Part shown: positions 11,001-14,000 of the stretch, in pieces | How the letters are laid out: every line of letters starts with the position of its first letter | How positions within the stretch are numbered: the stretch's first letter is position 1 | Notes under the pieces: model-generated | The model's database searches: none | Told to the model about the DNA's origin: nothing | The model's input: only the letters and a program-made list of their open reading frames with translations | Assembly: GCA_965215005.1 (NCBI GenBank) | Contig: CBDCCZ010000061.1 | Span: forward strand, 96,001-160,000 | Reading direction: 5' to 3' | DNA length: 64,000 nt | From: Kofleriaceae bacterium | GTDB lineage: Bacteria > Myxococcota_A > Polyangia > Haliangiales > Haliangiaceae | Program-made: the position numbers and the translations under genes

Positions 11001-14000
11001 TGGCGAGCACCATCGCCAATGACGTTCACGTACGTCTACGATGGAGCCGCCGACACGATTCCCACTCTCAATCAAGAGACCGGCGGCAACGGCTGGCGCA
11101 TGAGCGTCGCGGTCGCCAACGGCGCCGGCGAGACCCTCTACACCGCCACGCGCCTCACGGAGCAGCGCTGGATTCTCGATGGCTATCAGGAACGCGATCC
11201 TCTCGGCCGCGTCGTCTTCGTAGGTCAAGCGCTTTACTGGGACGAGCAGCTCCCCGGCGGCCGTCCGCGCGGCATCGTCGGGCAGCAAGTTATTTACGAT
11301 GATCTCGATCGCCCCATCGAGAAACGGCTGCCAACAGGGCATCGCACCAACATTCGCTACGCGGCATTTGAGGTGCAGACCGAAGCCGATGACTTGGCGC
11401 CAGTCACGACCTATCTCGACGGCCAAGATCGCATCTGGCGCACCACTCGAACCGTGGGCAACGACGCTGCTGCCATCACTGAGTCCGTCACCGCCATCTA
11501 CGACGCCGCCAGTCGCATCACCGAGATGCGCTTGCAAGACGGCGCGATCAGCCATGCGTTCACCTACGACAGCCTGGGTCGCCTCACCTTCGCGACCGAT
11601 CCAGACATTGGCGAGCGGCACCTGGAATGGGATGATGCCGGCCGCCTGGTGCGTCACGAGAACGGCGCTGGCCAAGCCGTTTCCTTCGAATACGACCAGG
11701 CTGGGCGGCTTCTGCGCAACGCGGCCGATGACGGCACCGCCTTCGTCTATCACTACGACAAGTCCAAGAGCGACGGCTTTGGGCGCACCGCCGGCCGACT
11801 TGCATGGGTGGAAGAGCCGACCGGCACTGTCCATCTTGGCTACGACGTCGCCGGCCGGGCGATACGAGCGCGGCGAACCATCGACGGCAAGACAGCGGAG
11901 GAGCGCCGCGACTACGCTCCTTCTGGCCTTCTCCTCGCCGTCCATTACAACGACGAGCTCCACGTTCCTGTTGTCTACGACCGCGCCGGCCGTCCCACCG
12001 CGGTCGGGCAGGTTTGGGAAGTCACCGAGCAAGATGCCGCGGGCCGGATTCTCGGCGAGCGCTACGGCAACGGCATCACCCAGACATATCAGCGCGACGA
12101 GCTCGGCCTCACCAGCGAAACCGTCGTCGCTCGCGACGAAACCTCGCTATATGACATCGTCATCGGCCGCACCGCCTACGGCGCCGTTGACGCCGTTACC
12201 GATCGCGACGGCCGCGGTCTCGACCATACCGCCACGTTTGGCTACGACGGCGCGGCTCGCCTCACCAGCGCCACCGTAGGCCGCGGCGCCGCCCATTCGT
12301 TCCAATACGAGTACGATGCGCTGCAAAACATGGTGCGTCGTGAAGCCAGCGGCCCAGGCACCATCGGCGTCCTCGCGGGCAACTACGAATACGACGAGCA
12401 TGGCCCAAGGCAGCTCTCGCAGATCCTAGCCCCCGATGGCACCTCCATCGCTGCCTTCGACTACGACGCCGCCGGCCGACAAACCCGCTCCGCCGATCGC
12501 ACGCTCCACTACAACGGCCTCGACCAGCTCATCCGCGTCGAGCTGCCAGAGGGAGTCGTGGAACACGCCTACGGCTACGACGGCCTTCGCATCCGCACCC
12601 GCAGCGTCGACGGCACCGAGCAGATCTGGTTTAGCGAAGGCCTCTCCGACAAAGACGGCCTCCGCGAGCACACCATCTCCCTCAATAGCCGCATCCTCGC
12701 CCGCGTCACCCAAGCCCCCGAAGGCCGCACCAGCAACAGCGCCGCCGCCGGTGCTAGCACCACGCGCTGGCCGCTGATCACCCTGCTCCTTGCACTCGCG
12801 AGCCTCTTCACCATGGGTCTCGCCTGGACCGCACGTGTCCGCCCGCGCCGCCGTCTCGCCGCCGCCCGCGGCCTCGCCCTCACCCTCCTTGCCGGCATCG
12901 GCCTCTCCTGCGGTGGCGGCACCCAATGGCACACCGACCAAATCCTCTACGCTCACGCCGGCGTCTCCCCCGGCCCCGTCCTCTTCACCGACGAAGCCGG
13001 CATCGTCGTCGCCGAACGCCGCTACGAGCCCTTCGGCGGCACCATCGACTCCTACAGCGAAACCGACGGCCAAACCGGCCTCATCGACTTCGCCCGCATC
13101 TCCTACAACGCCCTCAACAAACAATCCGACCCCGACACCGAGTGGTCCTATCACGGCGCCCGCTGGCTCGCTCCCCAAACCGCCCAATGGCTCACTCCTG
13201 ATCCCCCGGTTAAAGGCCCCGACCCCGAGTTCATGGACAAGCCATGGACCCTGCATCCCTACCAATACGTTTCGCAGAACCCGATTCTCTATTGGGATCC
13301 CGATGGAAACGAACAAGAGCACGTCAAGGTGCTCAACGACGGAAGCGTCTACACCCACGCTCACGGCCCCAATGGGCAAGACGTTTACTACATCTACATC
13401 CCGGACTCCCCGACATACGGGGGGGGCAAATTCGTCAACTCATTCGCCTATGACTCCAGCCGCTATCTAGCCGAGCAGCGCACCGACGGCCGTCTCGCCG
13501 TCGGCATCGCCTACGTCGGCGCCGCCGACAACGTCGCATTCGAGCTCTGGTTCACCAGCGTCAGAATCGGCGCCGGCGCCGCCAGCGCCTCGCTCAGCAC
13601 CGCCTTTGGCGTCGTCAATTTCATCTCAGACGTCAACGCCACCTCCAACGCCATCCGCAGCTGCCAAGGCGACTCCCTCTGCGCCGCCGAAGTCTGGATC
13701 GAGACGACCTCACCCGGGCTACCGGGTATAGCTGGGCCGAAAGGGACCAAGCCAACTACTCTGGAACCTGGTCCTCATGCCGAACGTTCGGTGCCTGCAA
13801 GAGGCCCGCAGCGTGATTTCACCCGCGGTGAGAGAAACGCTGTGAATGAGATTGGGCAGAGGAATGGTTGCCACACCTGCGGAACAACAGATCCAGGAAC
13901 GAAATCAGGCGACTTCGTTCCTGATCATCAACCGCCAAATGCAGTGAACCCACCTGGCAAGCCACAACGACTCTATCCTCATTGCCTCGGATGCAGTCGT

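What the first reader, a model, noticed from the sequence alone, without database searches (positions are those of the whole stretch)
12730..12925. TM helix + Arg cluster + internal lipoprotein-signal-like segment inserted in the RHS shell just before the core
The RHS repeats are interrupted by WPLITLLLALASLFTMGLAW-TARVRPRRR-LAAARGLALTLLAGIGLS-C-GGG. This is a stop-transfer-like helix followed by a textbook-looking signal peptide II with a lipobox (Cys at 12909). Canonical TcC/RHS cocoons are soluble. Inference: the shell is membrane-tethered, and signal peptidase II could cleave and lipidate the core+toxin half. Alternatively, the in-frame ATG (12813; 15711 in the orphan) could yield a stand-alone lipoprotein toxin, reminiscent of Myxococcus SitA lipoprotein toxins. 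No SD is visible before that ATG. The insert is retained in the orphan copy.
Basis: partly seen in the sequence, partly recalled or inferred. Interest (0 to 1): 0.82.

Follow-up and report, generated by a model that had tools for sequence, protein, structure and literature searches.

The report
Lipoprotein signal splitting a toxin shell
A myxobacterial toxin-container protein carries a lipoprotein export signal in its middle, which probably cuts it into a membrane-held shell and a lipid-anchored plug-plus-toxin piece, and relatives also encode that piece as separate small genes, suggesting swappable toxin cartridges.

Summary
The gene (8043-14033) is a Sec-exported TcB-TcC-type RHS fusion. Between the last shell strand and the RHS core it carries linker, TM helix, Arg loop, hydrophobic helix and Cys (12909). 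The Cys is present in 120 of 120 homologues (query included) and the -1 residue is G/S/A in 118, although the insert is only 20% identical to the query against 48%/62% for the flanks. Best reading (0.75): an internal type II signal peptide, processed by Lgt/LspA into a TM-anchored shell and a lipidated core+toxin. Key support: 31 of 118 short homologues are stand-alone Met-SPII-Cys-core-toxin proteins, the predicted cleavage product; seven were seen as separate genes in DNA, five with an SD. A second RHS clade has MYXO-CTERM+SPII, or an SPI-like helix, at the same place. The upstream lipoprotein resembles TcA by fold, and Imm21 follows an HNH-type toxin, pointing to a bacterial target. The internal ATG 12813 is not supported: no SD, not conserved. 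No processing is shown experimentally. NCBIfam names a similar untested hairpin ('invert_tail'); I found no paper on it in RHS/Tc proteins.

The parts
3257..8020 (+). TcA-like lipoprotein (1587 aa; N-terminal SPII, Cys at about 3305); probable delivery partner
   Evidence: GGAGG SD. The AF2 model of its last 828 aa has 22 Foldseek matches at E<=0.001, all listed ones TcA, but with low TM-scores. A homologue lies directly upstream in 44 of 58 loci. No sequence-level family hit.
8043..8123 (+). N-terminal Sec/SPI-type signal peptide of the TcB-TcC fusion
   Evidence: Sequence. A hydrophobic stretch precedes the first conserved motif in 82 of 85 homologues in which that motif was found. SignalP was not available.
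8124..12710 (+). TcB-like part (SpvB, FG-GAP propeller, TcdB_midN) and RHS/YD shell, ending in the strand before the insert
   Evidence: Pfam; PDB YenB/TcdB hits; AF2 pLDDT 87.6 and VIA Z 27.0, rmsd 2.7, 852 aligned to TcdB2-TccC3 4o9x
12711..12767 (+). Ala/Gly/Thr/Ser/Pro-rich linker, predicted periplasmic
   Evidence: Composition over 120 homologues; no Cys in the first 25 insert residues in any of them; median length 22
12768..12827 (+). TM1, stop-transfer helix (out to in)
   Evidence: KD 1.95; best 19-mer >=1.6 in 117 of 120; helix in the AF2 model
12828..12854 (+). Arg-rich cytoplasmic loop, doubling as the n-region of the internal signal
   Evidence: >=2 K/R in 119 of 120; median net charge +5 against +1 for the linker and 0 after the Cys
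12855..12908 (+). h-region and lipobox of the internal type II signal peptide
   Evidence: No charged residue at -12..-1 in 118 of 120; -1 G/S/A in 118 of 120; PSSM test
12909..12911 (+). Invariant Cys (C1623), predicted lipidation site and new N-terminus
   Evidence: 120 of 120; only invariant Cys in 45 full-length proteins
12912..13307 (+). Short tether plus RHS-associated core with both autoprotease Asp motifs
   Evidence: TIGR03696 above cut-off; aligns to TccC2/TccC3/YenC2 starting just after the insert
13308..14033 (+). Variable C-terminal domain ending in CxxC..DH..CxxC..Q (NGO1392-like HNH nuclease pattern)
   Evidence: Motif positions; pattern and its Imm21 association from PMC3482391 passages; no Pfam hit
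14050..14547 (+). Imm21 immunity protein
   Evidence: PF15589 E 5.5e-33
14504..15043 (+). DUF4265 ORF (start probably about 14630; 3' end appears frameshifted)
   Evidence: PF14085 E 1.2e-18; an end like that of the second copy at 17352-17810 lies in another frame
15139..16997 (+). Orphan module: about 190 shell codons, insert (TM1 15666-15725, Cys 15807), core and a different C-terminal domain; no start or SD of its own seen
   Evidence: 95% DNA identity over 1066 nt; 5' context

Best explanation
The insert is a membrane hairpin whose second helix is a working internal type II signal peptide. Inferred steps: (1) the N-terminal signal sends the TcB-like shell through Sec; (2) TM1 stops transfer, leaving the Arg loop in the cytoplasm; (3) helix 2 restarts export of the RHS core and toxin; (4) Lgt lipidates the Cys and LspA cuts before it. 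The products are a shell anchored at its C-terminus and a lipoprotein made of core plug plus toxin. They stay together because the strands on either side of the insert are joined by a short turn in insert-less relatives. The toxin is cut off by the core autoprotease and handed on through the neighbouring TcA-like lipoprotein, probably to bacterial competitors. To leave the inner membrane TM1 must also be removed: by myxosortase in clades with a MYXO-CTERM, by an unknown intramembrane protease here. Shown: sequence anatomy, conservation, gene context, fold resemblance, existence of stand-alone genes. Inferred: topology, lipidation, cleavage, assembly, target.
For: Cys 120/120, -1 G/S/A 118/120, uncharged h-region 118/120, basic loop 119/120, while the insert is 20% identical to the query against 48%/62% for the flanks. 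A PSSM from 266 heuristically predicted N-terminal SPIIs of this genome passes 104 of 120 inserts and 66 of 12,539 other internal Cys. Charge fits positive-inside. 31 of 118 short homologues are Met-SPII-Cys-core-CT with no TM1; 30 of 31 keep both core Asp motifs and their CT length matches (median 210 against 227). Seven are separate genes in DNA, five with an SD and four with the start overlapping or within 3 nt of the previous stop. A distant non-Tc RHS clade: of 150 representatives 18 have a hairpin with a MYXO-CTERM-like Cys plus SPII, 14 a hairpin with a Cys-less signal-like second helix, and 43 are stand-alone signal peptide+core+CT. AF2 builds a confident shell and core with the insert as a low-confidence helix-loop-helix between two strands. 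lgt and lspA are in the genome. Lys at +2 (inner-membrane retention in M. xanthus, PMC3222651) occurs in 0 of 120. A 1985 paper titled on processing of internalized prolipoprotein signals is cited in two reference lists; its result is recalled, not read.
Against: No biochemical evidence. The 120 homologues were found with a query containing the insert, so 120/120 is conservation among insert-bearing proteins. Relatives without any insert exist: L064, L074, L095-L097, P0146, P0227, so the insert is dispensable for the family. The strict lipobox is met in 18 of 120, and Pro at -2 is enriched (22/120 against 6/223 N-terminal SPIIs and 0/31 stand-alone genes), which may slow or alter processing. 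The PSSM control is not matched for TM ends. No conserved cleavage motif precedes TM1, so release from the inner membrane is unexplained. Ala at +7 (matrix sorting) occurs in 13 of 120 only. The query's tether is short (about 15 residues from Cys to the conserved His, against 21-24 in most homologues). TcA likeness rests on a model with pTM 0.50, TM-scores 0.20-0.25 and 11-13% identity. A bacterial target rests on Imm21 here; of 25 downstream ORFs scanned, one hit a known immunity family, and that was in insert-less L074.
Confidence: 0.75

Rival explanations
1. Uncleaved tether: the two helices stay as a permanent membrane hairpin (Cys perhaps lipidated by Lgt but not cut by LspA), holding an intact cocoon on the inner membrane.
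For: Atypical -3/-2 residues with Pro enrichment; TM1 has no visible release motif.
Against: The same helix+Cys serves as an ordinary N-terminal SPII in 31 stand-alone genes. In the other clade the second helix is either SPII-like or SPI-like, that is, signal-shaped in both forms.
Confidence: 0.12
2. Internal translation start: the core+toxin is made as a stand-alone lipoprotein from ATG 12813 (15711 in the orphan), SitA-style.
For: The in-frame ATG gives a plausible 32-residue SPII. ATG occurs in the range in 20 of 38 inserts against 36 of 145 control windows. Stand-alone genes of this form exist.
Against: No SD here, while both true starts have one. Start positions are scattered, 5 of 38 have no start codon, and an SD is present in 2 of 38 against 9 of 145 controls. 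The ATG excess may reflect Met in TM helices, since the controls were soluble shell. TM1 conservation (117/120) is not needed for this mechanism.
Confidence: 0.06
3. The Cys has another role (disulfide, or recognition by a sortase-like enzyme other than LspA), or the insert is a tolerated scar of a fusion between a TM-anchored shell gene and a lipoprotein gene.
For: TM-Arg-SPII junctions also join unrelated proteins in this genome (C1, C3); insert-less relatives exist.
Against: No second invariant Cys. The Cys follows the helix with small residues at -1, the SPII geometry, whereas the MYXO-CTERM Cys precedes its helix (PMC11980579). A scar would not keep one residue invariant at 22% median pairwise identity.
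Confidence: 0.07

Closest known systems
Tc toxin B-C cocoon (TcdB2-TccC3, YenB-YenC2) and the TcdB/TcaC-type polymorphic toxins of Zhang et al. 2012 (PMC3482391)
   Same: Signal peptide + SpvB + beta-propeller + RHS shell + core with DPxG + variable C-terminus; shell fold (Z 27); TcA-like gene next door.
   Different: Internal TM-Arg-SPII hairpin, lipoprotein TcA-like partner, immunity gene, orphans and stand-alone cartridges. PMC7861908 states that no immunity proteins were found in the Tc loci examined and set B-C fusions aside.
NCBIfam NF058595 'invert_tail' (lipo-invert putative C-terminal anchoring domain)
   Same: TM-Arg-helix-Cys hairpin; matches the insert at E 2.7e-7. Earlier scan notes describe it as splitting an Ig/FN3 domain.
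   Different: 30.9 bits, below the 37-bit cut-off, only profile positions 12-77 of 113; 0 of 201 phylum genomes over cut-off. Here the hairpin separates an RHS shell from a roughly 370-residue core+toxin rather than a short tail.
MYXO-CTERM / myxosortase, including the internal tag of MXAN_5598 (PMC11980579)
   Same: TM helix plus Arg cluster in mid-protein. A distant RHS clade has a MYXO-CTERM-like Cys motif at this very place.
   Different: This clade has no Cys before TM1 (0 of 120 in the first 25 insert residues); the invariant Cys follows a second helix.
SitA lipoprotein toxins delivered by outer membrane exchange (PMC5562445, PMC8546572)
   Same: Lipoprotein with a C-terminal polymorphic toxin and a downstream immunity gene; the stand-alone cartridges have this outline.
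   Different: The cartridges carry an RHS core and sit beside a shell gene and a TcA-like gene. The passages seen do not describe RHS cores in SitA (0 'rhs' in PMC8546572). TraA dependence was not tested.
Large signal-peptide Rhs proteins of M. xanthus kin discrimination (Rhs4/5; review PMC10433427)
   Same: Large, signal-peptide-bearing, T6SS-independent Rhs toxins in myxobacteria.
   Different: About 4000 aa; the passages seen mention no internal hairpin or TcA-like partner. The primary paper was not held.

Membership tests
Sec/SPII lipoprotein signal | Basic n-region, uncharged h-region, small residue at -1, invariant Cys +1 | tested here: met
   119/120, 118/120, 118/120, 120/120; PSSM 104/120
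Sec/SPII lipoprotein signal | Strict lipobox [LVI][ASTVI][GAS]C | tested here: not met
   18 of 120; query G-L-S-C. The genome's own predicted SPIIs are also loose at -3.
Sec/SPII lipoprotein signal | Position at the N-terminus | tested here: not met
   Cys is residue 1623 of 1996; N-terminal only in the stand-alone relatives
Sec/SPII lipoprotein signal | Lgt lipidation and LspA cleavage | not testable with these tools
   The enzymes are present; activity needs experiment
TcB-TcC (Tc cocoon) | SpvB + propeller + TcdB_midN + RHS shell + core with autoprotease aspartates | tested here: met
Tc toxin complex | TcA subunit encoded nearby | tested here: inconclusive
   Fold search returns TcA only at E<=0.001 but with TM 0.20-0.25; no sequence hit; pentamer and binding not tested
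Tc toxin complex | Eukaryotic target, no immunity gene | tested here: not met
   Imm21 follows the gene; contrast PMC7861908. The target itself is untested.
NF058595 invert_tail | Score above the 37-bit curated cut-off | tested here: not met
   30.9 bits for the insert, 24.8 for the whole protein
MYXO-CTERM | Cys motif before the TM helix, Arg cluster after | tested here: not met
   No Cys in the first 25 insert residues in 120 of 120; no TIGR03901 hit
SitA toxins | TraAB-dependent transfer; homology to a SitA escort domain | not tested
   No SitA sequence was compared

The most novel reading that the evidence does not exclude
These loci encode a cell-envelope-assembled, lipid-tethered, Tc-like weapon against bacteria in which the RHS cocoon is cut in two at the shell/core joint. 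After cleavage the gene's own core+toxin is the same kind of molecule as the separately encoded lipoprotein cartridges, so one shell and one TcA-like injector could be loaded with different toxins at the protein level, without DNA recombination. The same split, with SPII, SPI or MYXO-CTERM signals, recurs in distant RHS clades, so many small 'signal peptide + RHS core + toxin' genes now read as orphans may be live cartridges.
Probability: 0.4. Interest if true: 0.92.

Novelty: new variant of a known kind. Interest (0 to 1): 0.82.

Why it matters
RHS and Tc cocoons are treated as soluble containers in which core and toxin are continuous with the shell, and orphan modules as silent spares for recombination. 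A conserved internal lipoprotein signal at the shell/core joint, with the predicted product also encoded by itself, implies periplasmic assembly from membrane-anchored halves and possibly exchange of toxins between proteins. It offers a concrete route for T6SS-independent delivery of large myxobacterial Rhs toxins, which reviews list as unknown (PMC10047993 legend). It points to a Tc-like machine with immunity genes. It also gives a natural substrate with a killing read-out for the untested idea that LspA processes internal signals. Cultured carriers exist (Myxococcus, Corallococcus, Hyalangium records).

Tried and rejected
Internal start as the general mechanism: rejected. Membership of invert_tail and MYXO-CTERM: not met. 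A shared post-Cys sorting motif: a Gln/Ser-Ala-Leu-type motif is enriched in the inserts over shuffles (17 of 120 against mean 4.1, max 9) but not in the genome's own lipoproteins (11 of 266 against 10 and 12 in control windows), and the query lacks it, so it was dropped. The Ala +7 matrix signal is not conserved. The upstream protein gave nothing by Pfam, NCBIfam, PDB sequence or ESM Atlas (best 0.76, a lead only). The window's orphan as an expressed cartridge: no start or SD, so read as a classical orphan. Of 11 script-flagged cartridge candidates among 110 core copies, four were dropped by eye: L045 (full gene), the first L174 copy (probably a frameshifted full gene), L144 (ambiguous) and L177 (false). 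The core tree is a quick one (144 rows, 131 columns; the careful search did not finish): cartridges need 14 changes against 27.6 shuffled, but starred branches force only 2, so repeated origin is suggested, not shown. SignalP and DeepTMHMM were not available; hydropathy and a home-made PSSM stood in. Earlier-finding look-ups by sequence, place and two word sets were empty.

Full report
OBSERVATION. ORF 7848-14033 (+) most likely starts at 8037/8043 behind a GAGGAG SD and encodes 1996 aa. Pfam gives SpvB, FG-GAP, TcdB_toxin_midN and RHS repeats, NCBIfam the RHS-associated core, and the best PDB sequence hits are YenB and TcdB-TccC fusions. Between the last shell strand (12690-12710) and the first core strand (12936-12965) lie a linker, TM1 (12768-12827), an Arg loop, a second hydrophobic helix (12855-12908) and Cys 12909. 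The orphan copy from 15139 is 95% identical over 1066 nt and keeps all of it.

CONSERVATION. A search with residues 1500-1825 of the ORF found 221 proteins, of which the best 120 were returned, query and one paralogue included. All 120 have the Cys; -1 is G 66, S 32, A 20, N 2; 118 have no charge at -12..-1; 119 have at least two K/R before the helix; 117 have TM1 with KD >=1.6. Median identity to the query is 20% in the insert, 48% upstream and 62% downstream; Cys makes up 0.24% of the shell. It is the only invariant Cys in 45 full-length sequences. Net charge is +5 in the loop, +1 in the linker and 0 after the Cys. A PSSM from 266 heuristically predicted N-terminal SPIIs of the same genome passes 104 of 120 inserts and 66 of 12,539 internal Cys at the 10th-percentile threshold; the query scores 7.2 bits. 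Caveats: the query contained the insert, so the set is biased to insert-bearing proteins; the control Cys are not TM-matched; the strict lipobox is met in 18 of 120; Pro at -2 is enriched (22/120 against 6/223 and 0/31).

WHERE IT SITS. AF2 on residues 790-1760 with 37 sequences gave pLDDT 87.6 and pTM 0.84. The insert is a low-confidence helix-loop-helix between strands 761-770 and 840-850 of the model. The model aligns with TcdB2-TccC3 (Z 27.0, rmsd 2.7, 852 residues) and with other RHS and teneurin shells (Z 23-32). Sequence similarity to TccC begins just after the insert. In insert-less relatives (L064, L074, L095-L097) the same two strands are joined by a short turn. Nine further distant loci printed, and the other RHS cores of the genome shown there, also lack it. 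So the insert occupies the shell/core joint and is optional for the wider family.

THE PREDICTED PRODUCT EXISTS AS A GENE. A search with the part from ATG 12813 returned 118 short proteins. 31 begin with Met, a basic stretch, a hydrophobic helix and Cys, with no TM1 remnant; 14 more with an early Cys were set aside as truncated or non-Met calls. 30 of the 31 keep both core Asp motifs, with a median C-terminal length of 210 against 227 in full-length proteins. In DNA, 110 distinct core copies split into 79 with full insert, 11 candidates, 10 without Cys and 10 at contig edges. Seven candidates survive inspection (L059 twice, L086, L140, second L174 copy, L189, L190): five have an SD, four start on or within 3 nt of the previous stop, and five clearly follow a full-length or another toxin gene. 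Most of the 31 proteins were not seen in DNA context. On a quick tree of 144 cores, the 30 cartridges need 14 changes (shuffled mean 27.6), but starred branches force only 2.

THE SPLIT RECURS ELSEWHERE. A distant locus (L016/L203), a non-Tc RHS protein, has a MYXO-CTERM-like Cys motif, TM, Arg cluster and SPII at the same place. Its region found 23,991 representatives at E<=0.001. Of the best 150, 18 have hairpin+Cys (all with a Cys before TM1), 14 a hairpin whose second helix has no Cys and looks like an SPI, 43 are stand-alone signal peptide+core+C-terminal domain, 68 are plain and 7 could not be anchored (script classification, no DNA context). Two unrelated long ORFs of the window's genome have a MYXO-CTERM-like + SPII junction, one of them kept in 20 of 20 loci inspected.

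CONTEXT. The upstream gene (3257-8020) is a lipoprotein. A homologue lies directly upstream in 44 of 58 B-C genes with at least 900 nt of flank; 8 follow another B-C gene and 6 neither. It has no sequence family. Its last 828 aa folded at pLDDT 74.6, pTM 0.50, and all listed Foldseek matches at E<=0.001 (22 counted) are TcA subunits, with TM 0.20-0.25 and 11-13% identity: TcA-like, not proven TcA. The C-terminus ends in CxxC-DH-CxxC-Q followed by Imm21, the pair tabulated as NGO1392-like HNH with Imm21 in PMC3482391. Of 41 relatives' C-termini, 7 hit Pfam (LHH, EndoU, HNH-EHHH, Ntox43, two peptidases, eCIS core). Of 25 downstream ORFs, one hit a known immunity family (SUKH, in insert-less L074) and two FGE-sulfatase. 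lspA, lgt, six CPBP and two rhomboid matches are in the genome.

INTERNAL START. ATG 12813 and 15711 have no SD. Among 38 distinct inserts in DNA (five rows dropped: two insert-less, three regex misses), 33 have some start codon in range, 20 an ATG, 2 a start with SD (one a stand-alone gene) and 5 none. Controls: 105, 36 and 9 of 145. The ATG excess counts for the rival, but positions are scattered.

MECHANISM. Most likely (0.75): Sec export of the shell, stop at TM1, re-initiation by helix 2, Lgt/LspA processing, non-covalent closure of the shell on the lipidated core, autoproteolysis and delivery through the TcA-like lipoprotein. All steps after the sequence anatomy are inferred, and how TM1 is removed in this clade is open. 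The bolder reading (0.4) is that separately encoded cartridges load the same shell.

LITERATURE. Ten searches (listings seen) returned no paper describing an internal lipoprotein signal in RHS or Tc proteins; 'lipo-invert' had 0 occurrences in the 20 listed of 26 hits. Passages only were read of PMC3482391, PMC13018210, PMC7861908, PMC11980579, bioRxiv 2023.06.07.544157, PMC3222651, PMC10433427, PMC10047993, PMC5562445 and PMC8546572, and reference-list lines of PMC3850990 and PMC2945643. No supplements were seen. Vassallo 2020 (ISME J) was not held and Vassallo 2019 (PNAS) was not read; either could bear on novelty. Precedents: an internal MYXO-CTERM proposed for MXAN_5598, the NCBIfam invert_tail name, and unchecked earlier scan notes on such hairpins in Ig/FN3 domains and polyproteins, none of those shown being on RHS.

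VERDICT. Real, strongly conserved and apparently undescribed in this context. The anchoring device has named relatives, hence a new variant of a known kind; the split-cocoon and cartridge architecture is what merits the score of 0.82.

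Noticed in passing
G000:C1 79491-83576 (-), L102 3489-7544: 1351-aa ORF: N-terminal lipoprotein, then a MYXO-CTERM-like tag, TM, Arg cluster, second SPII with Cys and a further domain. The junction is kept in 20 of 20 loci inspected; the second domain has a match in 49 of 61 genomes.
   Followed up: partly
G000:C3 192711-198386 (-), L103 4709-10354: 1881-aa Cys-rich ORF with the same MYXO-CTERM-like + SPII junction in its middle.
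   Followed up: no
G000:C31 16066-21906 and 25769-26536: Paralogous locus: TcA-like lipoprotein gene (frame shift near its end), B-C fusion with the insert and a better lipobox, and an orphan whose C-terminal domain shares about 60% identity over its first 139 residues with the window's.
   Followed up: partly
L203 1389-7262: Non-Tc RHS protein with a MYXO-CTERM-like motif + SPII at the same hairpin; its search returned 43 of 150 small signal-peptide + RHS core + C-terminal-domain proteins.
   Followed up: partly
L062, L078, L100/L101: Tandem arrays of complete B-C fusion genes with different C-termini behind TcA-like genes; two TcA-like genes in tandem in L100.
   Followed up: no
L059 7237-8723; L190 978-2078: Cartridge genes follow the previous toxin gene with stop/start overlap and no immunity gene between them.
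   Followed up: partly
window 14504-15043 and 17352-17810: Two DUF4265-related copies, each after a toxin module; the first looks frameshifted near its end.
   Followed up: no
window 18744-20687 (-): IS66-family transposase downstream of the orphan.
   Followed up: no
P0002, P0022, P0048, P0066, P0096, P0107: Some homologues carry Hint-family domains by precomputed Pfam accession (family names recalled), giving longer C-termini.
   Followed up: no
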